Source of the DNA: Chiloscyllium plagiosum
Lineage: Eukaryota
Reading direction: 5' to 3'
Assembly: GCF_004010195.1 (NCBI RefSeq)
Contig: NC_057718.1
Span: 10,190,988 to 10,210,987, forward strand
Length of the DNA: 20,000 nt
Part shown: one piece after another, positions 1 through 18,092 of the stretch
How the letters are laid out: the number at the start of each line of letters is the position of its first letter
How positions within the stretch are numbered: position 1 is the first letter of the stretch
Notes under the pieces: generated by a model
Told to the model about the DNA's origin: nothing
Databases searched by the model: none
Seen by the model: the letters and a program-made list of their open reading frames with translations, nothing else
Translations under genes and position numbers: made by a program

Positions 1-180
1 GAATCTTCTATTGTTTTTAAAACCAAGGTAGGTAGATTCCCTATTACTGAGGGGATGAAAGATTATCAGGGGTACATAGGAATGTAGAATTAAGGTTAAA
101 ATCAGAGCAGCCGTGACCTTATTGAAAGGCGAGACAGGACCGAAGGGCCATGGGGACTATTCTTGTTTCTTTGTTCATAT
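1..180 (+). mobile_element. CR1-type LINE 3' end fragment
   Basis: tttttaaaaccaaggtaggtagattc...cagccgtgaccttattgaaaggcg...gaagggcc resembles the CR1 3' ends at 4140-4300 and 9280-9440. Confidence 0.7.
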
Positions 181-189
181 GCAGGCCAA

Positions 190-360
190 ATTAAGGACAG
201 CTGAGTTCCTTTGCTGAAGGACACTAATGAACCAGAAGGGTTTTTACACCAATCACCTTTACATTCCAGGATTATAACTGAATTTTAGGTAGAGCAAGGG
301 CAAGGTGGTATTTGAATCCTTGTTTCTGGAGCATTAACAGGAGTTTCCGGCCTGCAGATT
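190..360 (-). mobile_element. Degenerate tRNA-derived SINE fragment (same family as 1810-2125)
   Basis: Shares ttaaggacagctgagttcctt...aaggacactaatgaaccagaagggttttt with 1921-1975. Confidence 0.55.
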
Positions 361-381
361 ATTTGACAAGTGACTTTCCCA

Positions 382-520
382 GATGGAAATGTGTTGCTGG
401 AAAAGCGCAGCAGGTCAGGCAGCATCTAGGGAACAGGAGAATCTGCCTGACCTGCTGCGCTTTTCCAGCAACACATTTCCATCTCTGATCTCCAGCATCT
501 GCAGACCTCACTTTCTCCTC
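382..520. mobile_element. Short fold-back, probably Penelope-derived, element with 42-bp perfect inverted repeat and 15-bp TSD
   Basis: 381-422 is the exact reverse complement of 443-484; caagtgactttccca flanks it at 367-381 and 520-534. Confidence 0.85.
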
Positions 521-631
521 AAGTGACTTTCCCATCATACCAAAAGCACCCCTAACACACGGAAGGGGAAAATGGTGATGAAATAAACCAGTGGCGAAAC
601 ACAAGTCAGATCCATCGAGTGCGTGGCTTAC

Positions 632-744
632 ATTTTGTGAAGATCCAGGTGAGACTTTCTCTTCTGACTGGACCTTCTCTTGGTTTCCCCTTCATATACA
701 GTCGGGCCAGCGAGATCGTACAGGCGCTGGGGGTTGCCTAGGAC
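632..744 (-). CDS. ARFGEF3: ARFGEF3 coding exon (113 bp; VLGNPQRLYDLAGPTVYEGETKRRSSQKRKSHLDLHK/..)
   Basis: Resembles recalled human ILGSPKRLCDLAGPSSTESESRKRSISKRKSHLDLLKL; gacag acceptor, AT|gtaagc donor; phase 0-2. Confidence 0.92.
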
Positions 745-804
745 CTGTCCCGATAGATGTGGATAAGTGTTAATGCAGTTAAAACAAAAGGCACAGTCCT
801 AACT

Positions 805-1395
805 ACTCACCACTGGATGCCATCTTGACTTGGAGTCGCTTGGTCATGAGTTCAAATCCTCACTTGGGAACTTTGGGCACAAAATTGGAGCAAAGGCTCT
901 CAGTGCCCACACTGAGGGAGTGCTGCATTGCCAGAGATGCCAGATTTCAGAAGTTGCGTGACCCTCTCAGGCAGTTGTAAAAATTCCAAGTCTACTGTTT
1001 AAATCAAGATCAGAGGTGTTCTCCCTGGCACCTTGGTGAATAGGGGTCAAAACGTGTGGTGTTGGAAAAGCACAGCCAGTCAGACAGCACCCGAGGAGCA
1101 GGAGAGTTATATTCCACATCCACTGCCTTTTGAGGAAGAGAATTCCCAAGATTCACAAACTTCTGAGAGAAAGAATAATGTTTCTTCATCTCTGTTTTAA
1201 ATGGGTGATGCTCATTCCTGATGAAGAGCTTATGCTCAAAATGTTGACTCTCCTGCTCCTCGGATGCTGCCTGACTGGCTGTGCTTTTCCAGCACCACAC
1301 CTTTTGACTCCAATTTCCAGCATCTGCAGTCATCACTTTCTCTGCCTTGGTCAATAGTCATCCCTCAACCTAAAGCAGGCCTTCATGAGGTTTTC
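805..1395 (+). mobile_element. DeuSINE (SacSINE1/AmnSINE1-like) interrupted by an insertion at 1044-1344
   Basis: B-box-like gagttcaaatcc, then Deu-domain-like motifs actgagggagtgctgcattg...ccctctcaggc...gttctccctggcacc, resuming after the insertion as tcatccctcaacc. Confidence 0.65.
1044..1344. mobile_element. Fold-back element with degenerate hammerhead core and CR1-derived spacer
   Basis: Inverted arms ~1044-1113 and ~1240-1311; TSD ccttggt(g/c)aatag at 1031-1043 and 1345-1357; CTGATGA-A-GAGC-TTAT-GCTC-AAAA at 1218-1241. Confidence 0.8.
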
Positions 1396-1400
1396 ATTTG

Positions 1401-1721
1401 GGGGCGGCATGGTGGTTCAGTAGTTAGCACTGCTGCCTCACAACACTAGGGTCCCAGGTTCGATTCCAGCCTCGGGTGACAGTCTGTGTGGAGTTTGCAC
1501 ATTCTCCCTGTGTCTGCGTGGGTTTCCCCCGGGTGCTCCGGTTTCCTCCACAGTACAAAGATGTGCAGGTCAGGTGGATTGGCCATGCTAAATTACCCAT
1601 AGTGTTAGGTGCATTAGTCGGAGGGAAATGGTTCTGGGTGGGTTACTCTTCAGAGGGTCAGTGTGGACTGGTTGGGCCGAAGGGCCTGTTTCAACACTGT
1701 AGGGAATCTAATCTAAAAAAA
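1401..1721 (+). mobile_element. V-SINE (HE1-like tRNA-derived SINE), near full length
   Basis: A box tggttcagtag, B box ggttcgattcc, V-domain gtgtggagtttgcacattctcc...gtgtctgcgtgggtttcc, CR1-like tail gggccgaagggcctgtttc...aatcta. Confidence 0.88.
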
Positions 1722-1809
1722 CTTGGGATGGGGGTGTAGTTCAGAGTGAACCATGTTGGTGGGGGCCAGGAGTCACATATACAGCCCCAGGCAAAAGGTT
1801 GTAGGATTC

Positions 1810-2125
1810 ATTTATTCATTCATGGGATGTGGGTGTCGCTGATGAGGCCAGTATTTATTGCCCATCCCTTAGAGTCAACCACATTGCTGTGGGTCTGGAG
1901 TCACATGTAGGCCAAACCAGGTAAGGATGGCAGTTCCCTTCCCTAAAAGACATCAGTGAACCAGATGGGTTTTTCCCCACAATTGACAATGGTTTCATGG
2001 TCATCATCAGACTCTTGGTTCCAGATGTTTATTTAAGTCAAATTCCACCGTCCGCCAATGGTAGGACTCAAACCTGGGTCCCCTGATGAACAATCCAGTG
2101 GTCACACCACTAGGCCATCACCTCC
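1810..2125 (-). mobile_element. tRNA-derived SINE with LINE-derived 3' tail
   Basis: Minus strand begins ggaggtgatggcctagtgg (A box)...ggtttgagtcc (B box) and ends ...ggatgggcaataaatactggcc...cacatcccatgaatgaataaa, the tail also seen at 6120-6175. Confidence 0.7.
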
Positions 2126-2152
2126 AATGTGGAATGAAAGACACCAACACAC

Positions 2153-2477
2153 CTCCTTCATGATCTTGATAGCCTCTACCCGATGTTGTGGTGGTGGATA
2201 CAGCAGAAGGCGATGGTAAAGGGACTGCAGGACTGGCCTCAGTGACTCCAGGCAGCCGACAAGCCGCACCAGCTCCGCTGCTATGTAGTAGATGGTGCGT
2301 GCCACAGGTCCAATGAGTGCAGGCGCTGTGGACGAACAGCCTGATCCGCGGCCATGATCGGAGACGCCGGTCAAAGAAGCCTCAGTCTCCGTCAGCGAGG
2401 CGACATGACCTGACGAGATGGTCTTATCATGGATAGGGTTACCCAGGATGACAATCAGGGCTGGACAGAGCTGCTTC
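2153..2477 (-). CDS. ARFGEF3: ARFGEF3 coding exon (325 bp; W/KQLCPALIVILGNPIHDKT...LLYPPPQHRVEAIKIMKE)
   Basis: Core of ORF 2102..2503; strong resemblance to BIG3 (LCPALIVILGNPIHDKT, GVSDHGRGSGCS, GPVARTIYYIAAELVRLVG, YPPPQHRVEAIKIMKE); ttgcag acceptor, GAG|gtgtgt donor; phase 2-0. Confidence 0.96.
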
Positions 2478-2679
2478 CTGCAACAACATGGAAAGGGGTT
2501 CAAGGAAGAAGCTTGGACAACAATAACTCACATTTAAATAGCACTGTTAACAGAGTAATGTTACCAGGATACTTCACACAAGGGCATTATCAGGTGACTG
2601 AGCCACTTGGTCAACAGCTTGAAGGAGGAGAGAGAGAGTTTGAGAGATTTAGGGAAACCTTATCTTCAGCTTGGGGCCT

Positions 2680-2870
2680 AGCTAGCAATAATTTGTACTT
2701 TTATAGCATCTCTTACATAATAATACACTGCCCCAAGGCAGTTCACAGAGGCACCTACAAACAAAATATAACATCGAACCACTGAAGGAGAAATTACAAC
2801 AGATGACTAAAGCATGGACAAAGAGATAGGTTTTGAGGAAGTCTTAAAAGGAGGAGGATGTGGAGAGATT
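2680..2870 (-). mobile_element. L2-type LINE 3' end fragment
   Basis: cccaaggcagttcacagagg...agatgactaaagcatggacaaagagataggttttgaggaagtcttaaaaggagg is the reverse complement of a typical L2 3' region. Confidence 0.55.
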
Positions 2871-3129
2871 TTATTGAAGTAAGTTCACACCGAGAGTTGG
2901 GCACTAATTGTGTCAAAGTTAGCTGTTAGTTCTTTGTCGCAGAAATAATTGGACCAATCAGACACAATAACCTTTACTTAGCAACAGAATTAGTTATGGA
3001 TCGTGTCAGTGAGGTACAGAGTACATCTGCTCTCCAGTACTGCTGCTTCAGATTGCTTTCCAGTCTTAGGGACTAATGTTTTGTTGTGGATAATAATTTA
3101 CACCAGCTTAAGATATGCCTCATTATTGT

Positions 3130-3250
3130 ATAATTAGATTTAGAATTAAATTTAGGTTTTCATCATGGTGGGATCTGAACTCATGTTCCTAGATAATTAG
3201 CCTGGGCCTCCGGATTACTAACCCAGTGGCATCGCTACAACACCCTATCT
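3130..3250 (-). mobile_element. tRNA-SINE head fragment (family of 1810-2125)
   Basis: catggtgggatctgaactcatg...ctgggcctccggattactaacccagtggcatcgctac parallels 2057-2120. Confidence 0.5.
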
Positions 3251-3567
3251 CCCCCCCCCCCCATCTGATTGGTCGAATGGTCTTCTGGTCACCTGTCCTT
3301 GGGGGAATGTACTATGAAGTACAAAGACAAGTAATCAGGATAGATTAGAATGGACAGTGAGGCTCTTAAAAGCCAAACAGTCTAACACAATCGAAGTTTT
3401 TATGTTAGTTTTTATGCCCTCTTTGATGAACAACCTCCACACTTTCCCCGCACCATTTTAGTTGGTGTTTTCTGCAGCACATAACAGAGACACCAAGTTG
3501 GCAACAGAAACTGCTGCCAACAGACAGTTGGCAGAGACCTGGCATCAGTGAACATTTGACCCAGGTT

Positions 3568-3912
3568 ACAGAATGTTACAGCACAGAAGGCCATTTAACC
3601 CACTGTGTCTGTACCAGCTCCTGAAAGAGCTACCCAGCCAGTACCACTCTCCAGTTCTATCGCTGTACCCATCTAAATTCATCCTTTTCAAATATACATC
3701 CAGCTGTCCTTTGAAACCTCTTTTGGTATTTGCCACCGCCTGTCTCCCAGGAAGTATATCCCAAACCCTAATGAATCTGAGTAAAGACGTTTCTCTTCAT
3801 CTCATTCTAGCTCCCTTGCTGACATTCTTGAAATTGTGACTCCTGGTGAGCAAATAAGGTGCCCAGAACTCAACACAACACTCCAAACGTGGTCTGACCA
3901 ATGACTTGTACA
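3568..3912 (-). mobile_element. Degraded CR1 LINE 3' fragment
   Basis: Reverse strand of 3850-3912 reads LYKSLVRPRLECCVEFWAPY (CR1 ORF2 C-terminal motif); CR1 tail at 3570-3620. Confidence 0.7.
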
Positions 3913-4300
3913 GGTTGAATAGATTGAGCCTGCATTCACTGAAAAGATTCAGAGGCAACTTTATTGAAACATAGGAACTTGACAGGGTAAAAGTTGCTTT
4001 CTCTTGTGGGGAAGTCTCGGTTCAGAGGGGTCACCCATTTAAGACAGAGATGTGGAGGAATTCCTTCTCTCAGAGGGGAGTGAACCTGTAGAATTCTTTG
4101 CCCTCGAGGGCTACAGAGGCTGAGTCATAAAGATATTCAAGGCTGAGACAGACAAATTTTTAATCCGTAAGGGAATGACGGGTTATGGGGAAAAGTCAGG
4201 AAAGTGGAGCTGAGAGTTATCAGATCAGCCATGATCGCATTGAATGGTGGAGCAGACTCGTTGGGCTGAATGGCCTTACCTCTTCCCCTATGTTTTATGG
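3913..4300 (+). mobile_element. CR1 LINE 3' fragment
   Basis: tttaagacagagatgtggaggaattccttctctcagagg and 3' UTR agatcagccatgatcgcattgaatggtggagcagactcg...gggctgaatggcc. Confidence 0.8.
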
Positions 4301-4365
4301 TCAGCACTTCAAACAATACAGACTGAAATGAGAGACACTGCAAATACATCAATAATACAGCTCAC

Positions 4366-4470
4366 CACAAGAGGTCTGTGAAACCTTTATGACGATGCAT
4401 GACAGGAGAGGAACTGTTCAGCATGGAGAGGATACACTCCAGGTACAGGAGCTGCAACTGTTGGTTATTA
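4366..4470 (-). CDS. ARFGEF3: ARFGEF3 coding exon (105 bp; NNQQLQLLYLECILSMLNSSSPVMHRHKGFTDLL/W)
   Basis: Resembles recalled human DSQQLQLLYLECILSVLSSSSSSMHLHRRFTDLIW; ctcttcctttcag acceptor, TG|gtgagc donor; phase 2-2. Confidence 0.93.
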
Positions 4471-4929
4471 CTGAAAGGAAGAGGGCAGGAGTTAAAACGC
4501 AGTTCAGACAAATTCAACTAGAAATTCTAACAGACAGGTCCTTAATACCACAGGAAAAGTAGAAATGGGTCCATGCAAGAAGCTAGTCAATAAATTCAAA
4601 CCTATATGATCTACGGGCAGCAGATAGTCCCCAGAATTCATGGCTAATGTTTGTATGCTCACAGTATGCCCACTGGTTGTGATACTCTGGTGGCAGTATT
4701 GCATACATTGAGAAAACGTCACCACATATCACCAATTCAACTGAACGAGACAGTGTGAAATGCAAAATTTCTGCATAGGTGCTTAATCCAGACTCTAACG
4801 CCCTCCTCATTCAGGGGATTACAAGAAAATCAATAAACAAAAAGGGAATCGAACAATTTATGAAGACTGGGATGCTTCTGTATATGTTTGCATTCACAGC
4901 ACCTTACATCATCCAACCAAATACAGCCA

Positions 4930-5730
4930 GTAATGGAAGGTGACAGCAACAGAGCTATCAAGCAGCAAAACAATAACCTGCTCAATGATGCTCAGATTGG
5001 GTTCCTCCAGGGCCACTCAGCTCCTGATTTCATTACAGCCTGGCCCAAACATGGACAAAAAGAGGTGAACTCCATTGTTTGCCATCAACGAGATGTATAC
5101 TTGCCAACACTCCTTCAACAGCACCTTCAAAACCCATGACCACTACCATCTACAAAGACAAGGGCAGCAAATACATGGGAACACCTTCACCTGCAAGCTC
5201 ACTAACTTGGAAATATACCATTGTTCCTGCAGTGTGCCTGGGTCAAAATCCTGAAACTGCCTCCAAAACAGCACTGTGAAGTTACCTGTGTCACATGTGT
5301 GACACCACTTACAACACTCTCTTAGCCACTGATGCATAATGGCAGTAGTCAAGAGGATGGTGATGGAAAAGCACAGCAGGTCAGGCAGCATCCGAGGAGC
5401 AGGAGCATAAACGTTTCAGGCAGTTGTGTATATTATCCACAAGATGCATTGCAGTAACTCAATAAAGGTTCACCAAGACTTGCACCCTCTGGGGCATCTA
5501 GTTCAAGGGCAGGAGATACATGGGAGCACTACCATTTACAAACCAATAAATCATCCTGACTTAGAGATACATTATCATTCCTTCAGTGTTATTGGGTCAA
5601 AATCTTGGAACTCCCTCCCTAACAACATTGTGCTGGGTACCTATGTCATCTGGACTACAGTGATTCATGGACATTTAGGGATGGACAGTAAATGCTGGTC
5701 TTTCCACTGAGGCTCATATCCTACAAACTA
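4930..5730 (+). mobile_element. Fragments of a CR1/L2-group LINE (RT remnant plus two 3' segments)
   Basis: NNLLNDAQIGFLQGHSAPDFITAW is an RT QxGFR-like motif; 3' segments ggtcaaaatc(c/t)tg(a/g)aact...aacagca at 5240-5275 and 5595-5630. Confidence 0.65.
5348..5422 (-). mobile_element. Single arm of the fold-back/hammerhead family
   Basis: ggaaaagcacagcaggtcaggcagcatccgaggagcaggagcataaacgtttcaggca matches arms at 1053-1110 and 13224-13260; minus strand retains GCCT-GAAA-CGTT. Confidence 0.75.
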
Positions 5731-5994
5731 AATTTCAGAGTACTTTAAAGAGTATAACATATAGGCAGTTTGGAAACTGATGTTAATGAAAATGGCTAAT
5801 GGACACGGCTTTGTGGTAGCTGCCCATTCTATATCTCGTGGGACCTATACATTAGTACAAATGAACTCTCCATGGGACTGAGAAAGGACTAAATCCCATA
5901 CCAAGTTGAAAAGCTGAGGCAACCGCGTGATTCCTGATATTGGGACTGTTGGAAAATATTTGCGAAACAAAAAAAAAATGAAACTGGATGGACC

Positions 5995-6180
5995 AACCAG
6001 CGTCCACTATCACTGAGGCAAAATGCTGGAACCCCGTCCTATCAGCTCTGTGGGCATCCCTATTCCATGGATTGCCACAGTTCAAGAAAGCAGCTCACCA
6101 CCACCTTCTCAAGTGCAAATAGGGATGGGCAACAAATATTGCCCCAAGCCTGTGATGCCTACATCCCATGAATACATCAA
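5995..6180 (+). mobile_element. LINE 3' end (CR1/L2 group)
   Basis: agttcaagaaagcagctcaccaccaccttctcaagtgcaaatagggatgggcaacaaat...catcccatgaat tail. Confidence 0.7.
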
Positions 6181-6536
6181 TCAGTGAACCACATAATGGT
6201 TACTGGACAGAGGGAGGCCAATCAGCCCATCGTACAGTGCTGGTTCTCTACAAGAGCAAACTTAGCCAGCCCCACCACCAGCTTCCCTCTCTTCTCTCTT
6301 CCTCCTCAGTCCTTCTGTAGTTAGAACTGCAGTTACATTCCTTTCCCCACTATCATCCCTGGGGCCAGCTGTTAGGATGGAGAGGGGAGTCACGCTGCCT
6401 CAGACAGACTTGGCAGAGAATTCTAGTCATTGCTGTGATTTCTGAGTGTGTGTGGTAGTTAGGCCTGAGCTGGACAGGTTTGTGGATAATCTTTAGGGAA
6501 ATGTCTTAAAGCCTGAACCATGGAGAGTCCACTTAC

Positions 6537-6621
6537 GTCACCACTCTTTGCAGCTTCTCGCAAAGGACAGCAAGCACGGAGACCACGTCCTCACACAGCG
6601 ACTCGACCGGGACTGAGGAGC
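6537..6621 (-). CDS. ARFGEF3: ARFGEF3 coding exon (85 bp; G/SSVPVESLCEDVVSVLAVLCEKLQRVV/T)
   Basis: Resembles recalled human GSTVESLCDDVVSVLTVLCEKLQ; ccttttgtcag acceptor, AC|gtaagt donor; phase 1-2. Confidence 0.92.
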
Positions 6622-7504
6622 CTGACAAAAGGAGCATAGGACGATCAGCACGACGCAAACATCTCTGAGAGCTCAATAAAGCCTGACACTGGCTTCAGGA
6701 ATAACAGGGGGAGGGGAGGGGTACAACATGGGACGAGGAAAGGCAGACTTCAACATGGTGTAGTGTAATGGAAACCAAGTCACATGGTGAGACATTGGGA
6801 TGGACAGCCGACAGCCTGATCAAAGGGGAGTTAAGACCTACCCACTCAGTCCAAGGTTGTCATGGTGACATCTGTAAGACACAATGGTGGTCTTTTGAGA
6901 GACCACCCGAGAGGGTAGTCACAAACTCCATAGGGTGGATGATAAAGGGGGAGGGCAGGGAGGGTTTGTCCACAATTCACTCCTTGCAAGCCCACACTGA
7001 AACCATAACATGCCAAGGCTGGGGCTAAACCAACCAATGGTGGGGCTTCTGGTCCTCACTTGGAAGATAATCCCTCCCTTCGGAGCTGCTACTTGATCTG
7101 ATTCACCATGAGTTCCAATATTCCTGACACCCGGAATTGCAGAAAAAGGCCCAGGGGAGGTTCATGGTTTTCTTGTGAGGAGTTGGGTGGTAAAGGGACA
7201 CCATGGGGTCTTAGGGCAGGGGGATGGAAGTATGGCGGGGAGCAGGATGGTCTGGGTCCAGTCGGGCTGATAGCACAGAAGTGTGGACTCATTGGCATTA
7301 AGGGGAGGGGGGTATACAGTTGACATGTGCGGGACATCCTGAAGAATGAAATGCCTCGTTTTCCTCTCCCTTCCCTGTATCACGTCAAACAAACTGCCTA
7401 CTCTTGCCCGACTGCCTACATCAGGCACATGTACCACATTATTCCAATCAATAGGCTTGTTAACAAATCCAAATGATCTTTAATGGTTTATGTATGTATG
7501 TACA

Positions 7505-7742
7505 GCCACCCGACTTTACACTCGCCCCACTCTGGGCGCTCCATTTTCCTCCCACAGTCCAAAGAGGTGCAGGTTAGGTGGATCGGCAATGGGAAATTAC
7601 ACCACAGTGTCCAGGTTTGTACAGGATTAGCCAATGGTAAATGGGCTAAGATGGGGCATAGGTCTGGGCAGGATGCTCTCCAGAGGGTCGGTGCAGATTC
7701 ATTGGACTGAATGGCCTCTTTATGCACAGTAGGGGATTCTAT
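7505..7742 (+). mobile_element. 5'-truncated V-SINE (HE1-like)
   Basis: ttcctcccacagtccaaagaggtgcaggttaggtggatcggcaatgggaaattac and tail cagagggtcggtgcagattcattggactgaatggcct. Confidence 0.75.
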
Positions 7743-7774
7743 AAAGTTTGCAGGGCTACAAGAGTGACAGAGCT

Positions 7775-8160
7775 ATAGAAACATTATGCCAGAGGAGGCC
7801 ATTCAGCCCACTGAATCCATGCTGACCCTTCACAGAGCGATCAAATCCATCCTGTTCCTCCACTCCATAAATGTGGCTTTGCAAGTTTATTTCCCTTAAG
7901 TGTCCACACAATTTCTTTTAAAAATCATGGATCGTCTTTGCTTCCACCATATTGCCTTGAAGGCAAAGAATACCAATTATTATCACTCACTGACATTCCT
8001 ATCCCCACCCCACATCTCTTGCCCAAAACCTTAAAATGTGTTCCTCTCGTCCTTGTAATTCATGGGATGGGCTAATGGATGAGAGCAATTTTTCCTTGTC
8101 AACTTTACATAAACCTGTTGTGATCTTGTATACGTTGATCAAGTCTCCTGTTAATCTCCA
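7775..8160 (-). mobile_element. Degraded CR1 LINE 3' fragment
   Basis: gaggaggccattcagcccact... tail and gatcttgtatacgttgatcaagtctcct (reverse of GDLINVYKI). Confidence 0.6.
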
Positions 8161-8312
8161 ATGGGTTAGTTAGGTAAATTGTTCCTAAAGTTGATACAGG
8201 TATAATGGGCTGAATGCCTTCCTCTTTAAGTGACTTTATAAGCAAGCTTAAATTACATGTCTAACCTTCCGCACAAGAACAGGCCATTTGGCCCAACGCG
8301 TATACGATGGTA

Positions 8313-8496
8313 CACACAAAAACAGAAATTGCTGGAGAAACTCAACAGATCTGACTCCTCTTCAGATAGCCGGACTCAAAACATTAACTCTGTTTTCTCT
8401 TCACAGATGCTGCCAATCCTGCTGAATTTCTCCAGCAATTTCCATTTCCATTTCCATTTTAGATCTCCAACATCCACAGTTCTGCGATTTATTTAA
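8313..8496. mobile_element. Second-type fold-back element with degenerate hammerhead remnants
   Basis: gaaattgctggagaaactcaacag (8325-8348) vs ctgctgaatttctccagcaatttc (8419-8442); possible diverged TSD gtatacgatggta/gtacatgttggta (8300-8312, 8497-8509). Confidence 0.6.
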
Positions 8497-8546
8497 GTAC
8501 ATGTTGGTATTTGTGCTCCCCCTAAGTTGGGCGAAGGATTTTTTAC

Positions 8547-8589
8547 CTTTGCTGTAATGTTCCTCCTGCAATGTACAACCATCCTCATT
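8547..8589 (-). CDS. ARFGEF3: ARFGEF3 short divergent coding exon (43 bp; NEDGCTLQEEHYSK/G)
   Basis: Strong acceptor tttcccttctctcgtcag and donor AAG|gtaaaa. Phase 0-to-1 is exactly what joins the flanking exons. Length fits the recalled human segment IIENPDVPQDFGNQ/G, but there is no clear amino-acid similarity. Confidence 0.72.
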
Positions 8590-9081
8590 CTGACGAGAGA
8601 AGGGAAATTGATTCATTTAGTCAGGTCAACTGTCAACAACAACTGGAGCCACACATATGATGAGCAGACATACTTACCGGTGACTGGAATGCAAAGGAAC
8701 TTTAAATGGTTCAAACACTATGTGATAGAAGTTCAACTGTGCATCAAGGAGGATACAACACGCTTAATATTACTCTCATTTTCAACTTGCAGAGAAGATT
8801 GCAGAAATAAACAGGGAAAACCCATGTCCAAGGTTAACTTAAGTAAGTGCAATTCTGCTAAGTATCTCAATCCATGAGTTCAAAGAGGTTCTGTTTGGGA
8901 ACATGGACATCAGAGATACAGGGGTCTCCATTATATGTGAATAGCAAATAGAGCATTTGAGTTATCTCCAACTTACAGATGTGGAACCTTTCATTACTCT
9001 ACCCTTAGTGAAGCCTCACCTGATACTGAAATTGTTTTGTCATCTTCTCCAGGGTTTTCTGCTATGATAGTCAATGTTATT

Positions 9082-9440
9082 GGGGATCTTATAGAAACAT
9101 ATAAAATTATGAAGGGAATAGATAAGGTAGAGGCAGGGAGGTTGTTTACACCGACGGGCGAAACTAGAAATAGGGGACGTAGCCTCAAAAAAAAAGTGAG
9201 CAGATTTAGGACTGAGTTGAGGAGGAACTTGTTCTCCCCAAAGGTTGTGAATCTGTGGAATTCCCTGCCCAGTGAGGCATGTTTTTAAGGCAAAGATGTT
9301 CGAATAGTAAAGGAATTAAGGGTTATGGTGAAAGGGCAGATAAGCAGACCTGAGGCCATGAAAAGATCAGCCATGATCTTATTGAATGGTGGAGCAGGCT
9401 CGAGGGGCCAAATGGCCTACTCCTGCTCCTAGTTCTTATG
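9082..9440 (+). mobile_element. CR1 LINE 3' fragment
   Basis: GDLIETYKIMKGIDKVEAGRLF...FRTELRRNLFSPKVVNLWNSLP plus CR1 3' UTR ending tcttatg. Confidence 0.9.
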
Positions 9441-10746
9441 TTACCTCAAAACACCCATCAGGGAACATTTCAGCTACAACCCTCCAAACAAATTTGGAAG
9501 AAAAGCCAGATTATACAGTAGGGGTAAAATCAATTGTTTTCAAGTGCCTCTTAAGGGCTACCCTTTGAATTCCGAGGGGCTACGTTTTGTTTCTCGAGGG
9601 ACTACATTTTCACTTGCACTAATCCGTTCATTAGGTGATAGGGTCATATCGTAACAATACCTGCATTGTTGCGTGGAGTATTAGGACTCAGACAGAAACA
9701 AAATTAGAAGAATTCATCAGTATCGTGAATAATTACAACCCTCCATTTAACATAATTACAACACACAAGGAACACATTAATATCATGCGCACTACAGTAT
9801 TTAAACTGGCAGAAGACAACAGGCATAACTTTGCACCATTTTTTAGAAAGAAATAACTGATACACACTTCTGTAGACAAAAAACTATCGCCTTGGATGTT
9901 TTTGCCATGGACTGGTGAGTACACAGCGAAACAAGCTGCATTATTGTCTCCAAAGCAATCATTTCAAGTAATTCAACATTTTTGAGATGCTTTGAGACAT
10001 GATATCACAAATGTAAATATTTATGAAACAGAGCTGTTCAGTATTAAATTATCTAATCATGACAATAACATTTTGCCCTGAGTTTCCACTACCTTAAGCT
10101 CAAGATTCCATATTATTTGCACGGAATTCATTAGCGTGTTGACTTCAAGATTTCTTGGTTCCCAGTAAGTTTAGTGACCCATAGTTGAAAGGTTTTCCCT
10201 CTCTAGGCCATTTTCCCATTTTTGATATCTCTCTCCTTCCTTATTTAGCATGATTTCCCTCACAGGACCTCTAGCTCCCAGTCTTGTTCGCCCCCAATAT
10301 GGCAGAATCATTCCCCAGCCCACCCCGCCAACATTGCCCACAGCCTACAGTAACCCCACTTCCCCAGTCTCTCTTTCACTGGTCCCAGTGGCTCTGCTTC
10401 CCCAGCTTCAGAGTATTCTTGCTAAAATTCATCTTTCACACCTCTGTCTTTGCTCAATGAACATTAAACAGTGTATCTATGAAAGAAATCATCCCCATCC
10501 TGTCCCGACAAGTGAGGCATACATTCCAGTGAACCATACAGTGCAGATGAAGGCCATTCAGCACGTAATGCTATTCAAATCTGCTGGATTATTCCTCCGC
10601 TTTACGCTGTACCAGGAGAGTATTTATCACTTCATATTATTAACATTACTCCGAACTTAGCTCCTCACAACTTTCCTTTGTTCAGAGTCAATATATCTGT
10701 CTCACAAGCTAAGATCCCAGTAAACCCCCCACAACTTGCCCATTTT

Positions 10747-11070
10747 GGGGCACGGTGGCTCAGTGGTTAGCACTGCTGCCTCACAGCGCCAGGGACACGG
10801 ATTCAACTCCCACCTCGGGCAACTGTCTGTGTGGAGTTTGCACATTCTTCCCATGTCAGCGTGGGTTTCCTCTGGGTGCTTTGGTGTCCTCCCACAATCC
10901 AAAAATGTGCAGGTCAGGGGAATTGGCCATGCTAAATTGCCCATAGTGTTAAGTGCATTAGTCAGGGTAGGGAATGGGTCTGGGTGGGTTACTCTTTGGA
11001 GGGTCAGTGTGGACTTGTTGGGCTGAAGGGTCTGTTCCCATACTGTAGGGAATCTAATCGAATCTAATCT
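10747..11070 (+). mobile_element. V-SINE (HE1-like), full length
   Basis: ggggcacggtggctcagtggttagcactgctgcctcacagcgcc head, V-domain, (aatct)n tail; collinear with 1401-1721. Confidence 0.9.
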
Positions 11071-11204
11071 ACCCCAGCATTTTACAGAATTCCGTGACCA
11101 ACATCCAGTTGGGGAAAATCCAGTCCAGAAAGAGGCCATGCGCAAAACAATGAGTGACAGGCAGTAGAGATGCCTCTGATTGGTATATGAACAGATGAGC
11201 ATAT

Positions 11205-11350
11205 AAATCATGGGTAGGAGTAGGCCATTCAGCCCCTCGAGCTTGCCCTGCTATTCAATAAGATCATGACTGAACTGACGGTCACCTCAACTCCACTTGC
11301 CTACCTATGCACAATACTCAAGACTCCCTCGTTGGTCACAAAATCTATAT
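11205..11350 (-). mobile_element. CR1 3' UTR fragment
   Basis: gtaggagtaggccattcagcccctcgagcttgccctgctattcaataagatcatg is the reverse complement of the CR1 tail. Confidence 0.7.
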
Positions 11351-11490
11351 TTCTTTACTCGTTCACTGGGTAAAAGCTGGGCCACTTTTTATCACCCAAA
11401 TCTAATTATGCTTGAGAAAGTGGTGGTGAGCTGCCTATTTGAACCGCCACAGTCCATGTGCTGTAGATAGACTCATGGCACCATTAGGAC
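11350..11490 (-). mobile_element. LINE 3' end fragment (family of 5995-6180)
   Basis: cttgagaaagtggtggtgagctgcc...tgaaccgccacagtccatgtg is reverse complementary to the 6065-6115 segment. Confidence 0.6.
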
Positions 11491-11640
11491 TTGCTTCTAC
11501 CTGAACTATAGTCATTGACCCTGCCTCTGGGGAAGGGTGCTCCAAAGACACAAAACCTTCTGAGAGAGAAAGATCCCCCTGGAATGAGGGACCCTCTCTT
11601 TTTACGTGGTGCTCCCCTCATTCTGCACAGTTCTTCTCAC

Positions 11641-11763
11641 CTCACTCTCCTGCCTCAGACGGAGTTGCTGGGTCAAGTCACTCAACATCTGGCTGAGGGT
11701 GGCTCGCACCGCCGTGTTGATACTGCGCTGGTGACTGCTGGCTACGTACGTCTCGATGCAAAC
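11641..11763 (-). CDS. ARFGEF3: ARFGEF3 coding exon (123 bp; VCIETYVASSHQRSINTAVRATLSQMLSDLTQQLRLRQESE)
   Basis: Near identity to recalled human VCIETYISSCHQRSINTAVRATLSQMLSDLTLQLRQRQE; pyrimidine-rich ...gaaccag acceptor, GAG|gtgaga donor; phase 0-0. Confidence 0.93.
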
Positions 11764-11849
11764 CTGGTTCACGATGACAAGGAGAGAGGATATGAGACAA
11801 GCAGCAAAGTATATGGCAAATACAAAATCCCTGTGGAAAATTAACGTAC

Positions 11850-12535
11850 AGAGACACCCGGGAAGTTGGCAACGCAGTTCGATAGAGTGGTCAAGAAGGC
11901 ATACTGCATGCTTTCCTTCATCGGACGGGGCACTGAGTACAAAAGAGTTGGCAGGTCATGTTATAGTTGTATAGGACTTTGGTTTGGCCACATTTGGAAC
12001 ACTGCATACAGTTCTGGTTGCCACATTATCAAAATGATGCCAATGCTTTGGAGAGGGTGCAGAGGAGGTTCACCAGGATGTCGCTTGATATGGAGAGCGC
12101 TAGCTATGAGGAGAGGTTGAGTAGATTAGGATTATTTTCATTACAAAGGCGGAGGTTGAGGGGGAGGCCTGATTGAGGTCGACAAAATCATGAGAGATAT
12201 AGACAGGGTGGATAGCAAGAAGCTTTTTCCCCAGAGTGGGGGACTCAGTTACTAGGGGTTACGAGTTCAAGGCGAGAGGAGAAAAGTTTAAGGGAGATAT
12301 GCGTGGAAAGTGTTTTACGCAGAGAGTAGTAGGTGTCTGGAACTCATTGCCAGCAGCGGTGGTAGAGGCAAACACGATAGCATCATTTAAGATGTATCTG
12401 ATCAGATACATGAATGGGCAGGGAGCTGAGGGATACAGATCCTTAGAAAATAGGCGACTGGTTTAGATAGAGGACCTGGATCAGAGCAGACTTGGAGTGC
12501 CGAAGGACCTGTTCCCGTGCTGTAATTTTCTTTGT
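11850..12535 (+). mobile_element. CR1 (HER1-like) LINE 3' portion, frameshifted
   Basis: KKAYCMLSFIGRG, YRTLVWPHLEHCIQFWLPHY, ALERVQRRFTRM, FTQRVVGVWNSLP split across frames; CR1 tail. Confidence 0.92.
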
Positions 12536-12884
12536 AAATGTCCCATCGCAGTTACAGGGGTTGGGGGGGTTGAGGAAGGCTGAATCCCATGTCGGTCCCC
12601 ATCTGGCCTCCTGAAGGTTTCTGGAACCCTTCTCTCAGGGTGAGTAGGAAGGTCCCAGACATTCAACATCCTATGCTTACTTATTTATTCCTCACTTGGG
12701 CATTTCCCTTTGTTTAGGGAATGTGGGCAAACATGGCAGACACTGCCCAGCACAGTAAGATCCCACAAATAGACGCAAGGGGGTAATAGCCGTGTTCAGG
12801 GGAGGGCTTGAATCCTGCCACTAGTCATGCGAACAGGACTAAAGTACACTGCTTTCCCTCATTGACACTCAAAAAACAAGAAAT

Positions 12885-13005
12885 GTGAAAACACAGAAAA
12901 TAGGAACAGGAGCAGGCCTTTCAGCCCATCGAGCCCGCCCATTCAATATGACCATGGCTGATCATCCAACACAATAGCCAGTTCCCGCTTTTCCCTCATA
13001 ACCGA
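12885..13005 (-). mobile_element. CR1 3' UTR fragment
   Basis: aaataggaacaggagcaggcctttcagcccatcgagcccgccc-attcaatatgaccatggctgatc. Confidence 0.65.
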
Positions 13006-13221
13006 TCGAAACATGGGAAAAGAAACCAAAAAGACTCGTGTCTGGACAGTACCGTTTCCCAACCACCGGACCTCCGAAGGAGCTTTACTGACCACTTTGA
13101 AACTGCAGTGCCTGTGTAGTTCAGGAAAAACAGCAGTTATTACCTGCACAGGAAGCAGTGCAACTAAGGATCAGTAGAGGGTGAGAGGATTGTCCTAGGG
13201 TGGTAGGCTGAGAAAAAGTGG

Positions 13222-13414
13222 TGAGCGCAGCAGGTCAGGCAGTATCCAAGGAGCAGGAGAACCGACAGACATAAGCCCTTCTTCAGGAATCCTGAAGAAG
13301 GGCTTATGCCTGAAACGTTGATTCTCCTGCTCCTTGGATGCTGCCTGACCTGCTGCGCTTTTCCAGCAACACATTTTTCAGCTCTGGATCTCCAGCATCC
13401 TCACTTTCTCCTCC
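13222..13414. mobile_element. Palindromic fold-back element with hammerhead core and 14-bp TSD
   Basis: Arms 13224-13288 and 13290-13359 around a single central base; TSD ctgagaaaaagtgg at 13208-13221 and 13415-13428. Confidence 0.88.
13286..13325 (+). ncRNA. Minimal type I hammerhead ribozyme-like motif
   Basis: GGAAUC / CUGAAGA-A / GGGC-UUAU-GCCU / GAAA-CG-UU / GAUUCU: helix I 6 bp, helix II 4 bp, palindromic ACGU in place of helix III; predicted cleavage after 13319. Confidence 0.65.
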
Positions 13415-13459
13415 CTGAGAAAAAGTGGGTCGCCATTCTCCACAGCTGAGAAAAAATGA

Positions 13460-13800
13460 GCAGTGATCTTACTGAAATGTACAAGCAAAGAGCTATTCCC
13501 TAAGAGGGCAGGGGTTCAAAACTAGGGAGGCTATTTTTAAGGTGAGAAGAGGAAGATTTGAAAAAGACATGAGAGGCAACTTTTCCAGACAGAGTAATTT
13601 GTGTGTGGAATGAACTGCCAGAGGAAATGGTGGATGCAGCTACAGTTACAACGTTTAAAAGACATTTGGATAAGTACGTGAATAGGAAAGCTTTGGAGGG
13701 ATATGGGCCAAGCACTGGCAGCTGCAACTATTTAATTTGGGAACATGGTCGGCATGGACTGGTTGGACCGAAGGGTCTGTTTCCATGCTGTATGACTCTA
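13460..13800 (+). mobile_element. CR1 LINE 3' fragment
   Basis: WNELPEEMVDAATVTTFKRHLDKY and tail ggaccgaagggtctgtttccatgctgtatgactcta. Confidence 0.85.
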
Positions 13801-15600
13801 GAGGTTCACTAGATTGATTCCAGAGATGAGGGGTGTGTCATATGAAGACAGATTGAACAGATTAGGCCTAATACTGTCTGGAAATAATACTATTTGAGGA
13901 TAGCAAATGTGGTTCCCTTGTTCAAGAAGGGGAGTAGGGATAACCCTAGTAACTATAGGCCGGTGAGTCTCACTTCTGTTGTGGGCAAAGACTTAGAGAG
14001 AATTGTAAGGGATAGGATTTATGAACATTTGGATAGAAATAATGTGATCAAGGATAGTCAGCATGGTTTTGTGAAGGGCAGGTCGTGCCTCACAAACCTT
14101 ACTGAATTCTTTGAGAAGGTGACTAAGGAGGTGGACAAGGGTAAAGCGGTAGATATGGTGTATATGGATTTTAGTAAGATGTTTGATAAGGTTCCCCATG
14201 GTAGACTACTGCAAAAAAATACGGAGGTATGGCATTGAGGGTGAGTTGGAGGTCTGGATTAGGAGTTGGCTGGCTGGAAGAAGACAGAGGGTAGTAATTG
14301 ATGGCAAAGGTTCATCTTGGAGTGCAGTCACTAGTGGTGTTCCGCAAGGATCTGTTTTGGGACCATTGCTGTTTGTCATTTTTATAAATGACCTGGAAGA
14401 GGGGTTAGAAGGTTAGGTGAGCAAGTTTGCGGATGATACGAAAGTCGGAGGAGTGGTAGACAGTGAGGAAGGATGTGGCAGGTTACAGCAGGATATAGAG
14501 AAGCTGCAGAGCTGGGCAGAAAGGTGGCAAATGGAATTCAATGTAGCTAAGTGTGAGGTGATTCATCTTTGAAATTTGCCACCCAGGTAAATAGTGCGGT
14601 GAGGAAGGCATATGGCGTACTGGCTTTTATTGGTAGAGGAATTGAGTTCCGGAGTCCTGAGGTCATGTTGCAGTTGTATAAGACTCTGGTGCGGCCACAT
14701 CTGGAGTATTGTGTGCAGTTTCGGTCGCCATACTATAGGAAGGATGTGGAGGGACTGGAACGGGTGCAGAGGAGTTTTACCAGGATGTTGCCTGGTATGG
14801 TAAGAAGATCGTATCAGGAAAGGCTGAGGCACTTGAGGCTGTTTTCATTGGAGAAAATAAGGTTGAGGGGTGACTTGATAGAGGTGTACAAGATGATTAG
14901 GGGTTTAGATAGAGTTCACCATGAGAACCTTTTTCCACGTATGGAGTCAGCTATTACAAGGGGGCATAGCTTTAAATTAAGGGGTGGTAGGTATAGGACA
15001 GATGGTAGGGGTAGATTCTTTACTCAGCGAGTCGTGAGTTCATGGAATGCCTTGCCAGTAGCAGTGGTGGACTCTCCCTCTTTATAGGCATTTAAACGGG
15101 CATTGGATAGGCATATGGAGGATAGTGGGCTAGTGTAGGTTAGGTGGGCTTGGATCGGCGCAACATCGAGGGCCAAAGGGCCTGTACTGCGCTGTATTGT
15201 TCTATGTTCTGTGAAATTAGAAGAATGAGGGGAGATCAAATTGAGGTATTCAAGATGATAAAAGGTGTGGATAAAATAGACGTGGTTCCACTTGTGGGGC
15301 ATTCTGGGACGAGAGGACCTTGTTTTAAGATAAAGGGTGGCAAATTTAAAACAGAGTTGAGGAGAAACTACCTCTCCCAAAGGGTTGTGAATCTGTGGGA
15401 ATTCACTACCCCAAAATGAGGTAGATGCTGGGACAGAGAGTAAATTTAAGGAGGAGTTAGACAGATTTTTAATTGGTAATGGGTTGAAGGATAATGAAGA
15501 GGAGGCAGGAAAATGGGGGTGAGGAACTTAACAGCCATGATCAAATGGCAGATCAGACTCGATGGGCTGAATGGTCTACTCCTGCTCCTATTGTTTGTGG
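13801..15600 (+). mobile_element. Older CR1 3' fragment split by a younger CR1 (pieces 13801-13885 and ~15213-15600)
   Basis: RFTRLIPEMRGVSYEDRLNRLGL... stops at 13885 and resumes as EIRRMRGDQIEVFKMIKG...RRNYLSQRVVNLW plus tail. Confidence 0.75.
13894..15210 (+). pseudogene. CR1 LINE ORF2 (reverse transcriptase) remnant, 5'-truncated
   Basis: [67 protein letters not shown] (14426-14437); frameshift ~14215, TAG at 14414-14416, internal deletion near 14567; tail ttctatgttct. Confidence 0.95.
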
Positions 15601-15604
15601 TCAT

Positions 15605-16035
15605 TGTATGCACAGAAAGATCCCACAAACAGCAACGCGATCATAATCAGATAATCTGTTTTTTTTGTAATGTCGATTGGAAAATAAAAATCAATCAGAA
15701 CAGCAGAGAAAGGCCCATCTCCACAATAGCCCAAAGGGACCTGTTACAATCCCCCATCGCCACAATAGTCCAAAGGGACCTGTTACAATCCCCCATCGCC
15801 ACAATAGCCCAAAGGGACCTGTTACAATCCCCCATCGCCACAATAGTCCAAAGGGACCTGTTACAATCCCCCATTTCCAAGCAAGCAACAGGAGCCTCAG
15901 TTGAACATCTCAGTATTTCCTCAGTTCCGTATTGAAGTGTCAGCCTGGGTCTTGGGGCTAAAAGACCCTGGAGATGGAGTTAAATTCTGGGCCTTATGAC
16001 TCAGAGGTCAGAGTCATAAATGAACCACAACAACA
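15605..16035 (-). mobile_element. DeuSINE (SacSINE1-like) in reverse orientation containing a tandem repeat
   Basis: cacagaaagatcccacaaacagcaa...cagataatctgttt, gcctcagttgaacatctca...cctcagt...tgaagtgtcagcct and tgactcagagg are reverse-complement DeuSINE-like segments. Confidence 0.6.
15714..15874. repeat. 39-bp minisatellite, 4 copies plus partial
   Basis: Unit cccatcgccacaatag(c/t)ccaaagggacctgttacaatcc starts at 15714, 15753, 15792 and 15831. Confidence 0.97.
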
Positions 16036-16114: not shown

Positions 16115-16530
16115 CAACACACACCATGCACACACATAAAACATGCATGCAAACAGATATACAAATACATAAGCAAACATATGTACAAATGCATATGAAA
16201 ACATATATATAAACATGTATGCAAAAACATATGCAAACAGTATACAAACATAAGCAAACATATGCAAACACAGAAGCAAACATACAAACAAATGCAAACA
16301 CATACAAACATGTATGCAACACAAACACATATGCAAACACGCACAAATATGTATACAGCACAAACACATATGAAAACACATATACAAACATGCATACAAC
16401 ACAAACACATGAAAACATATACAAAGATGTATTTAACACATACAAATATTTACATAAACACAGACACAAGCAGATATACAAACATGTACACAAACACATA
16501 TGTAAACATAAATGTACGCAAACATTGATA
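16115..16530. repeat. Degenerate CA/TA-rich low-complexity tract
   Basis: Recurrent aaacatatgc/aaacacatac/atacaaac motifs. Confidence 0.9.
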
Positions 16531-16607: not shown

Positions 16608-16676
16608 CTCAGCAATCTTCAGCACTGCACTGCCATTTATTTCAAACGACGATGAGTATGTGATACACAGCAGCAC
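16608..16676 (-). CDS. ARFGEF3: ARFGEF3 coding exon (69 bp; VLLCITYSSSFEINGSAVLKIAE)
   Basis: Resembles recalled human VLLCITYTPTFDLNGSAVLKIAE; tttgaaag acceptor, GAG|gtaacg donor; phase 0-0. Confidence 0.93.
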
Positions 16677-17641
16677 CTTTCAAAGAAGCAGAGAATGAAT
16701 AAAAATACCAGGGATAAATATAAACTCAAACCAGGCCACAATCTCCACAGAACCACCTGTTTCTTGGAAATTCTAGTGCACTCTCCAATGATGCCAAATG
16801 GGGAAAGGGTTAGGGTCAAGGTAGTGAGGTTAAGAGGCACTGTGTTTACCCTGTACCTTGATGATCATATATCATGCCCTGCCTTCCCTCATGTCATCTC
16901 ATAACAGCTCGGAGTGTGTTTCTGGGCAAATTTCCTGGGTATTTGGCCCATGCTCTCTACCTAGGTCCAGTGGGGCTTTCCCACGAATGATAATTGACAT
17001 ATATCCCATCCTGGGCCTTTGAAAGGCCATGGAAGAAAAGTCTTACATTTAAATATCACCTGTAACATCCTGAAACATGGTGCAGCTAGGCTGTAATGTA
17101 GCAAAGATAGTGGCCAATTAGTGCCCAGTAAGATCAGTGAAATAGCATTGTCACAATGATCAGGTGCTCAGCTGTAGACAAGCTGGTTGGATGATAACTA
17201 GTGTGTGAGCACCATGAAAAACTCCTGTAATGTTCTCGCAGTGCTGGGCCAGACTGTCGGTCTGCGGTGGGACCTGGGTCCACAAGAGGCAGGTGTACTA
17301 CCCCAGGAGTCACCTAAAGGGAACTGATGACATTGAAGGTACTGCCACTTTTGCTTTCCCTGGTTGAGGGTTGGATTGGCATTCAGGAGACGATGCTTCA
17401 GAATGGACTTCCCATTCCACTTGACAACAGCCCTGCCCCTGGGATTTCAGGTGACATCCTGGAACACCAGAGGTCTGCGATCAGGAATCCTGCTCAAAGT
17501 CTATATGGTCTCCCTGGAATTCCAAGGCCCATTCCCTCAACCACAACATGCCGAGGCTTGGGGCACCCCATCGTAAACAGGACCCCCTCCTCAGGAACAA
17601 TCACCCTCATGTAAGTTTGCATGTTATCAATGAGTGAGTAC

Positions 17642-17773
17642 CTTCATGACTTCCACTTGCAGGTCCTCGTTCAGAAAAGGTGTAACCTTCATGGAGTCCA
17701 GCATCTGGTTCAGCAACTGTCTGTCCTCCAGCTCTTTCTCCGCTGACACCAGCCTCTCATCAGCCAGCAGTTT
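17642..17773 (-). CDS. ARFGEF3: ARFGEF3/BIG3 internal coding exon (132 bp; KLLADERLVSAEKELEDRQLLNQMLDSMKVTPFLNEDLQVEVMK)
   Basis: Hand translation resembles recalled human BIG3 KLLSEERFVS...QLLNQILNAVKVTPSLNEDLQVEVMK; ccgttag acceptor, AAG|gtactc donor; phase 0-0. Confidence 0.93.
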
Positions 17774-18092
17774 CTAACGGAACACAGCAAAAGGTTACCT
17801 TTTACACCACTGATACTAAACGCCCTTCCACCTCCATCACATCCCCTCCCTCTCTGTTCTGCTCTGCCATATCTTTGCTTCCTCCCTGGTTACTCCAATG
17901 CTCTCCTTACTGGCCTCCCAAGCTCAAAGCTCTGCTGCTCCTAATCCCAACTCACACCAAATTCCATTTCACTAGCATTCCCCACTTCCATCTCCCACCA
18001 CCCCACGGAGTTTACTGACTCACCGTAACTATTGGCCTCCAAAGTGCCCCCCGCCATGATTTTAAAATCTTTGTCTTTGTTTTCATATCAAG

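What the first reader, a model, noticed from the sequence alone, without database searches (positions are those of the whole stretch)
367..13428. A dispersed family of fold-back insertions sharing one architecture (at least 4 copies in 13 kb)
Seen: copies at 382-520, 1044-1344 and 13222-13414 share a layout of shorter inverted arm, variable centre, direct arm and unpaired tail ending ...tcactttctc. Each has its own 13-15 bp TSD; a solo arm lies at 5348-5422. The inverted repeat is not terminal, so these are not classic MITEs. Known: Penelope elements often insert with an inverted 5' pseudo-LTR. Inference: these are pLTR-only insertions, a SINE-like class built around a ribozyme rather than a Pol III promoter, and probably very abundant in this genome.
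Basis: partly seen in the sequence, partly recalled or inferred. Interest (0 to 1): 0.7.

Follow-up and report, generated by a model that had tools for sequence, protein, structure and literature searches.

The report
Fold-back stubs of Penelope-like retroelements
These short hairpin-shaped insertions are real retrotransposition products, made of two head-to-head copies of the ribozyme-bearing end of a Penelope-like jumping gene; one is cleanly absent from a related species, and the layout is already published for this class, so the finding is mostly ordinary.

Summary
Three fold-back insertions (382-519, 1044-1344, 13222-13414) have 15, 13 (one mismatch) and 14 bp target duplications; a tail-less solo arm (5347-5422) and an older fifth relative (~8320-8490) are also present. 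Copy 1 has an exact empty site in two DNA runs (two studies) of a relative about 4% diverged. The arm is a very abundant repeat whose majority letters form a minimal type I hammerhead. Inverted truncated copy, direct copy, one-sided 30-40 bp tail and TSD is the published insertion layout of endonuclease-bearing Penelope-like elements; lone and opposite-strand minimal hammerheads are published too. A separate SINE-like class is not supported: the three junctions all differ, copy 1 lacks the ribozyme core, and each of its arms holds sequence the other lacks, so the hairpin is built at insertion. I could not link this arm to an RT/GIY-YIG ORF (no genome held; searches blank). One lead: two of three inverted arms stop at the hammerhead cut site, but slippage or stalling explains that equally. 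The scan reported this family many times on other DNA of this genome.

The parts
367..381 (+). Copy 1 left target-site duplication (15 bp)
   Evidence: Exact repeat at 520-534; present once in organism B, runs X12 and X9 (table 8)
382..443 (-). Copy 1 inverted arm, tail-less; its 5' end is the first or second base after the predicted hammerhead cut site
   Evidence: 54/57 identical to copy 3 direct arm; loose ends behind 443 continue into the hammerhead core, agreement 0.65-0.76 in 4 of 4 runs
443..519 (+). Copy 1 direct arm, 5'-truncated about 21 nt downstream of the cut site, with 36-nt unpaired tail (484-519)
   Evidence: (loose end before 443 in X21)
520..534 (+). Copy 1 right target-site duplication
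1031..1043 (+). Copy 2 left target-site duplication (13 bp, one mismatch to 1345-1357)
   Evidence: Sequence
1044..1108 (-). Copy 2 inverted arm, tail-less; 5' end within about 2 nt of the predicted cut site
   Evidence: 59/64 identical to its own direct arm, 30/37 to 50/58 to arms of other copies
1109..1210 (-). Copy 2 centre: inverted fragment of a CR1-type LINE 3' end (filler)
   Evidence: 69/84 to 15344-15431 and 70/96 to 4031-4129; arm-to-filler junction at single-copy depth in X12 and X9
1211..1344 (+). Copy 2 direct arm: decayed minimal hammerhead (core starts 1218, GAAA lost) and 34-nt tail (1311-1344)
   Evidence: majority letters at 1227, 1236, 1238, 1242, 1245 restore the core and stem II (table 3)
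1345..1357 (+). Copy 2 right target-site duplication
5347..5422 (-). Solo tail-less arm, starts inside hammerhead stem II, no TSD
8320..8490 (+). Older, diverged fold-back relative (inverted arm about 8320-8366, direct arm about 8372-8490), no TSD found; edges approximate
   Evidence: 70% identical over 76 nt to the arm; inverted repeat I18
13208..13221 (+). Copy 3 left target-site duplication (14 bp)
13222..13290 (-). Copy 3 inverted arm, reaches the upstream edge of the hammerhead, 5-nt deletion removes the GAAA box, 3' end 55 nt short of the direct arm
   Evidence: 61/65 to own direct arm
13290..13414 (+). Copy 3 direct arm with the best preserved minimal hammerhead (core 13292-13319; G-U in place of G10.1-C11.1; U at position 17) and tail with a 7-nt deletion
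13415..13428 (+). Copy 3 right target-site duplication

Best explanation
These are miniature insertions made by the RT/GIY-YIG protein of an endonuclease-bearing Penelope-like element (PLE), consisting only of the last ~130 nt of its terminal repeat (minimal hammerhead to tail). Shown: new DNA lands between staggered 13-15 bp duplications (empty site for copy 1); the arm is a hammerhead-bearing high-copy repeat; the two arms of one insertion are more alike than arms of different subfamilies; junctions differ in every copy. Inferred: the endonuclease nicks both strands; each nick primes a cDNA on PLE RNA, one at the tail end and one at a second start site about 35 nt inside; both run to the 5' end of a short template or stall at the hammerhead; the two cDNA ends are joined head to head through 0-2 nt of microhomology, sometimes with filler DNA (the CR1 piece in copy 2). 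The hairpin is a by-product of each insertion, not a self-copying unit, and ribozyme activity is not needed.
For: Empty site: X12 record 9 and X9 record 16 join window 366 directly to 520, removing the element plus one TSD. Tails of 36 and 34 nt in 2 of 3 copies, and the solo arm ends near the same inner point; a 30-40 bp one-sided tail beside an inverted 5'-truncated copy is the typical PLE layout (Craig et al.; Arkhipova et al., with 8-10 bp TSDs). The anole PLE protein cuts and extends both strands, starts RT at two adjacent internal sites that bound the tail, and does not need hammerhead cleavage in vitro (Frangieh et al.). Copy 1: the inverted arm has about 21 nt at its 5' side that the direct arm lacks and the direct arm has the tail that the inverted arm lacks, so neither can be a simple snap-back copy of the other. 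Majority letters give an intact minimal hammerhead, as defined for PLE repeats. Copy 2's arms share three minority variants (1248, 1276, 1277 and their mirror positions).
Against: No RT/GIY-YIG ORF was linked to this arm: no genome held; pattern scans found 0 in viral, metagenome and prokaryote collections; none of 120 loci from a looser pattern matched over 40 nt; one reading frame of the arm gave no protein hit. The PLE ORF in the window (19369-19998) carries a different end sequence. Copy 3's tail is 55 nt, not 30-40. The three arms that keep the start of the core begin just upstream of it, which random truncation does not predict. Shared variants in copy 2 could come from later gene conversion.
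Confidence: 0.78

Rival explanations
1. A dedicated non-autonomous family: short solo repeats are transcribed from their own promoter just upstream of the hammerhead and are re-mobilised in trans by a PLE protein, so most copies descend from short masters, not from full-length elements.
For: Direct arms of copies 2 and 3 and the inverted arm of copy 3 start within about 8 nt upstream of the core. Loose ends before 1213 have low agreement (0.39, 541 contigs in X12), so there is no single shared upstream sequence. pLTRs alone suffice for mobilisation in trans in Adineta. Non-autonomous PLE derivatives and solo retrozyme monomers, including in one chondrichthyan, are reported.
Against: Copy 1 and the solo arm lack the core or its start. 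No tandem arrangement, which defines non-LTR retrozymes. A defined 5' end is also expected if a full-length transcript starts in the 5' repeat and RT initiates at the nearest tail (inference). No place where many RNA molecules begin or end (table 6; weak, fragmented single-cell library). Even if true it is a described kind.
Confidence: 0.15
2. The inverted arm arises by self-priming (snap-back) of one cDNA or of an antisense template, followed by endonuclease resolution that leaves the tail on one side.
For: Proposed for head-to-head palindromes in Adineta and for the tail. Copy 3 abuts with no centre. A recurrent opposite-strand joint 1212/1251 (7, 3 and 4 contigs) is in register with hammerhead stem I. 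Inverted arms of copies 3 and 5 carry deletions across the hammerhead, as if a polymerase skipped a hairpin.
Against: Copy 1 cannot be made by one simple snap-back, since each arm has sequence the other lacks; copy 2 has 100 nt of foreign filler at the turn.
Confidence: 0.2
3. Fold-back DNA transposon or MITE-like element.
For: Long inverted repeats and TSDs.
Against: Repeats are not terminal, TSD length varies (13, 14, 15), arms are 5'-truncated at variable points with a fixed 3' end, hammerhead motif present, solo arm present.
Confidence: 0.02

Closest known systems
Insertion units of endonuclease-positive Penelope-like elements: pLTR, adjacent inverted 5'-truncated copy, 30-40 bp tail, TSD (Arkhipova et al. 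2013, PMC3846280; Craig et al. 2021, 10.1101/2021.04.23.441226)
   Same: Head-to-head inverted copy, one-sided tail of 34-36 nt in 2 of 3 copies, variable-length TSD, empty orthologous site, solo arms without TSD, unrelated DNA caught between repeats.
   Different: No ORF remnant at all; whole insert 138-301 bp; TSDs 13-15 bp against 8-10 bp in Adineta; far higher abundance; the autonomous partner was not identified here.
Minimal hammerheads of metazoan PLEs (Cervera and de la Pena 2014, PMC4209133)
   Same: Type I core without helix III, unpaired base between positions 9 and 10.1, G10.1-C11.1 pair and palindromic 15.2-16.2 in the majority letters; lone motifs and pairs on opposite strands 100-700 bp apart are reported there.
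   Different: Helix II is 4 bp (plus a possible loop pair) against 7-8 bp in Schistosoma; no shark is named in the text parts I read or in the 2 supplementary files searched (file 1 not searchable, figures not visible).
Poseidon_Ac of Anolis carolinensis (Frangieh et al. 2024, PMC11167929)
   Same: Two RT start sites bounding the tail and cleavage plus extension of both strands account for a tailed and a tail-less arm; hammerhead not needed for insertion in vitro.
   Different: In the main-text parts I read, the work does not reconstitute head-to-head joining; clade of the present family not determined.
Non-LTR retrozymes of animals (Cervera and de la Pena 2020, PMC7229834; Li et al. 2026 preprint, 10.64898/2026.07.22.740005)
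   Same: Short, non-coding, type I hammerhead, related to PLE pLTRs, long TSDs, dispersed monomers.
   Different: Retrozymes are head-to-tail tandems with two or more intact hammerheads that release circular RNA; here copies are single or head to head, with minimal and decayed motifs.

Membership tests
Endonuclease-positive Penelope-like element insertion | Repeat is the terminus of an element with an RT and GIY-YIG ORF | tested here: inconclusive
   No genome; collection scans and one-frame protein searches blank; none of these collections is expected to hold shark DNA
Endonuclease-positive Penelope-like element insertion | Minimal type I hammerhead in the terminal repeat | tested here: met
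   Motif at 13292-13319; majority letters and loose-end consensus give the intact core. Rfam has no match at gathering score, as expected for the minimal form
Endonuclease-positive Penelope-like element insertion | Inverted 5'-truncated copy next to the direct copy | tested here: met
   3 of 3 TSD-bounded copies
Endonuclease-positive Penelope-like element insertion | One-sided tail of 30-40 bp | tested here: met
   36 and 34 nt in copies 1 and 2; copy 3 is 55 nt (1 of 3 outside the range)
Endonuclease-positive Penelope-like element insertion | Variable-length TSD that is single at the empty site | tested here: met
   Copy 1 empty site in X12 and X9; copy 2 is shared with that relative; copy 3 not tested
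Non-LTR retrozyme | Head-to-tail tandem units, each with an intact type I hammerhead | tested here: not met
   All copies in the window are single or head to head; at most 1 of 7 arms of the main family fits the minimal descriptor
Non-LTR retrozyme | Expressed as small linear or circular RNA with ends at the cut site | tested here: inconclusive
   3621 of 12,955,460 RNA records laid, both strands, no pile of ends; a polyA single-cell library cannot show such ends
SINE-like non-autonomous family | Copies descend from a fixed short master with common boundaries | tested here: inconclusive
   The hairpin has no common junction (3 of 3 differ), but 3 arms start near one point upstream of the core; no genome-wide sample available
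MITE / fold-back DNA transposon | Terminal inverted repeats and fixed-length TSD | tested here: not met
   34-55 nt unpaired at one end; TSDs 13, 14, 15 bp

The most novel reading that the evidence does not exclude
The junctions record real RNA ends in the germ line: one class of arm runs off at a transcription start just upstream of the hammerhead and another at the hammerhead cut site, each primed from one of the two nicks. The many thousands of junctions in this genome would then be a natural read-out that minimal PLE hammerheads cleave in vivo and that head-to-head PLE insertions come from double priming on two templates. Basis: inverted arms of copies 1 and 2 stop at the cut site within 1-2 nt, and the opposite-strand joint 1213/1247 is the better supported of the 3 opposite-strand joints listed, by contig count (9, 5 and 9 contigs; only 15 of 739 joints were shown). 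Caveat: the same four letters lie at 1214-1217 and, by majority, at 1247-1250, so slippage across the hairpin or stalling at it gives the same joint.
Probability: 0.18. Interest if true: 0.55.

Novelty: new member of a known kind. Interest (0 to 1): 0.22.

Why it matters
As a kind of element it is known, so it matters mainly for annotation: a very abundant repeat that forms long hairpins inside host introns (here a Sec7/BIG-family gene on the minus strand) and gives clean presence/absence markers between close shark-like species. The one wider use is mechanistic: how PLEs make head-to-head insertions and whether their minimal hammerheads ever cleave in vivo are open questions, and a genome-wide count of where each arm ends would test both.

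Tried and rejected
Whole-genome count: no genome held. Rfam: 11 matches at E up to 1, all below gathering score, the hairpin ones being generic miRNA-like matches; no hammerhead model hit. Pattern scans: 0 in viral contigs, 0 in metagenomes, 0 in prokaryote genomes; a looser pattern gave 120 loci, longest alignment to the arm 25 nt, taken as chance. Protein searches with one frame of copy 3's arm: 0 hits, 6 candidates and none significant; other frames not tried, so this is weak. No RNA holder listed for 12700-13500. RNA run X21: no pile of ends. Look-ups by sequence in earlier findings: nothing. Summed contig depth (3.5-12.8 million on the arm against about 6-19 in unique flanks) shows high copy number but is not a count. 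Copy 2's CR1 centre as a multi-copy transduced subfamily: disfavoured, the junction sits at single-copy depth in two runs. A local source for that centre: the homologous part of a CR1 end lies just left of window position 1, about 1.1 kb away, and could not be read. Paper searches found no paper describing this shark family; Repbase and Dfam were not available, so it may well be catalogued there. The in-window PLE ORF as partner: rejected, its end sequence differs.
Full report
Observation. The sequence, repeat search and my scripts confirm three TSD-bounded fold-backs: 382-519 (15-bp exact TSD), 1044-1344 (13 bp, one mismatch) and 13222-13414 (14 bp exact), plus a tail-less solo arm at 5347-5422 without TSD. 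At 3000 random site pairs, 1 reached 13 exact matches and 3 reached 13 with one mismatch. The unpaired tails are 36, 34 and 55 nt.

Empty site. I laid four runs on 200-1420. In organism B, X12 record 9 aligns to 200-366 and 520-645 with adjacent record positions, and X9 record 16 to 200-366 and 520-1069 likewise: 153 bases (element plus one TSD) are missing and the TSD is single, in two studies. Flank differences are 13 of 293 and 28 of 717, about 4%. X1 (organism A) record 1 also stops at 366 with 119 letters left, and the same depth (11.7) is listed at 561-586, which suggests an empty allele there too, but the second piece is not listed, so this is inference. Copy 2 is present in organism B (X9 record 16 runs into the arm to 1069; records 11 and 17 span 1076-1206 at single-copy depth), so it is older and gave no empty site.

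The arm. About 90,000-95,000 contigs were laid per DNA run, nearly all depth on the arms; the tool warns this is no copy number, but the family is plainly very abundant. Majority letters at 1227, 1236, 1238, 1242 and 1245 restore a minimal type I hammerhead (CUGANGA, unpaired A, 4-bp stem II closed by G-C, GAAA, CG, UC), and the loose ends behind 443 read the same core with agreement 0.65-0.76. This fits the minimal motif of PLE repeats (Cervera and de la Pena 2014; text parts 1-2 of 4 read). In the window only copy 3's direct arm keeps a near-complete motif; copy 2's has lost GAAA, copy 3's inverted arm has a 5-nt deletion, and copy 1 has no core at all. Copies 1 and 3 form one subfamily (68/70 between direct arms), copy 2 and the solo arm are more distant.

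How the hairpin is made. The junctions differ in all three copies. Copy 3 abuts at the upstream edge of the hammerhead. Copy 2 holds about 100 bases of an inverted CR1-type LINE 3' end (69/84 to 15344-15431), at single-copy depth. In copy 1 the inverted arm reaches about 21 nt further 5' than the direct arm, while the direct arm alone has the tail; one simple snap-back cannot give both, two cDNAs joined at a 1-nt microhomology can. Copy 2's arms share three minority variants and are 59/64 alike, against 30/37 to 50/58 for its inverted arm with arms of other copies, so both came from one source or were later homogenised. The anole PLE protein cuts and extends both strands, starts RT at two sites that bound the tail, and inserts without hammerhead cleavage (Frangieh et al. 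2024; parts 1-2 of 4 read). I infer double priming, one arm from each nick and start site, joined head to head. Self-priming, proposed by Arkhipova et al. (passages and Discussion read), remains a rival: copy 3 fits it, and a joint at 1212/1251 lies in register with stem I.

Comparison with what is known. Craig et al. [quoted passage not shown] Non-LTR retrozymes (PMC7229834, passages; Li et al. 2026 preprint, parts 1-3 of 5; review PMC6155905, passages) are head-to-tail tandems, which is not met here. MITE features are not met. The defining link to an RT plus GIY-YIG ORF is untested in effect: no genome, blank scans and blank one-frame protein searches. A PLE-type GIY-YIG ORF at 19369-19998 (Pfam E 0.0023, below cut-off; Atlas GIY-YIG clusters at 0.94-0.96) runs into its own, different hammerhead, so it belongs to another family. 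Seven paper searches found no description of this family; Repbase and Dfam were not available. That the organism is a shark is my recall of the repeat types and the wording of earlier notes, not a tool result.

Against my reading. Three arms begin within about 8 nt upstream of the core, and upstream loose ends are heterogeneous (agreement 0.39), so a short template with a fixed 5' end is plausible. Copy 3's tail is longer than the published range.

Residual lead. The inverted arms of copies 1 and 2 stop within 1-2 nt of the predicted cut site, and the joint 1213/1247 recurs in three DNA runs (9, 5, 9 contigs; 15 of 739 joints shown). This would be in vivo evidence of cleavage, but a 4-nt direct repeat flanking the core makes slippage or stalling equally good explanations, and the RNA run showed no pile of ends.

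Earlier findings. The scan has noted this family in many other windows of the same genome with the same verdict; these are unchecked notes, not support. Two of them suggested looking for a nearby source of the filler; the homologous CR1 stretch does lie just outside the window's left edge, but I could not read it.

Verdict. Real, retrotransposed, very abundant, and a miniature form of a published PLE insertion pattern. New member of a known kind; interest 0.22.

Noticed in passing
window ~620-740, 2160-2420, 11630-11770, 16610-16680, 17640-17775 (minus strand): Five apparent coding exons of a Sec7/BIG/Mon2-family gene (Atlas 0.91-0.94, low recognition score; translations); I recall the peptides as ARFGEF3/BIG3. 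Copies 1 and 2 flank one exon, about 100 and 300 bases away. Every arm of the main family that lies in gene sense lacks an intact hammerhead core.
   Followed up: partly
window 19341-20000 (minus strand): 3' end of a second Penelope-like family: GIY-YIG frame of 209 codons open to the window edge, running into its own minimal hammerhead at about 19445-19405, with an in-frame 15-nt duplication; it interrupts a SINE that starts at about 19251.
   Followed up: partly
window 1-170 and 1109-1210: The window opens inside a plus-strand CR1 3' end whose missing upstream part is homologous to copy 2's filler; the filler's end and window 1-4 share four letters in about the right register. Possible capture from a template 1.1 kb away; not testable here.
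   Followed up: partly
window 1406-1716, 10749-11062, 18786-19120, 19251-19340, part at 7530-7746: Several copies of a SINE-like repeat with a tRNA-like head and a LINE-like tail (families D2, D4, D5); HE1-type by recall.
   Followed up: no
window 13860-15210, 11860-12530, 3960-4300, 9080-9440, 15210-15600: Decayed CR1-type LINE fragments; RVT_1 match E 8e-16 at 13888-14235.
   Followed up: no
window 15714-15870 and 16130-16530: A 39-bp tandem repeat of about 4 near-identical units, and a CA/TA-rich low-complexity tract.
   Followed up: no
window 200-645 (run X1, record 1): A DNA run with the best word share also seems to lack copy 1, so the insertion may be polymorphic or restricted to the window's lineage (second aligned piece not listed).
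   Followed up: partly
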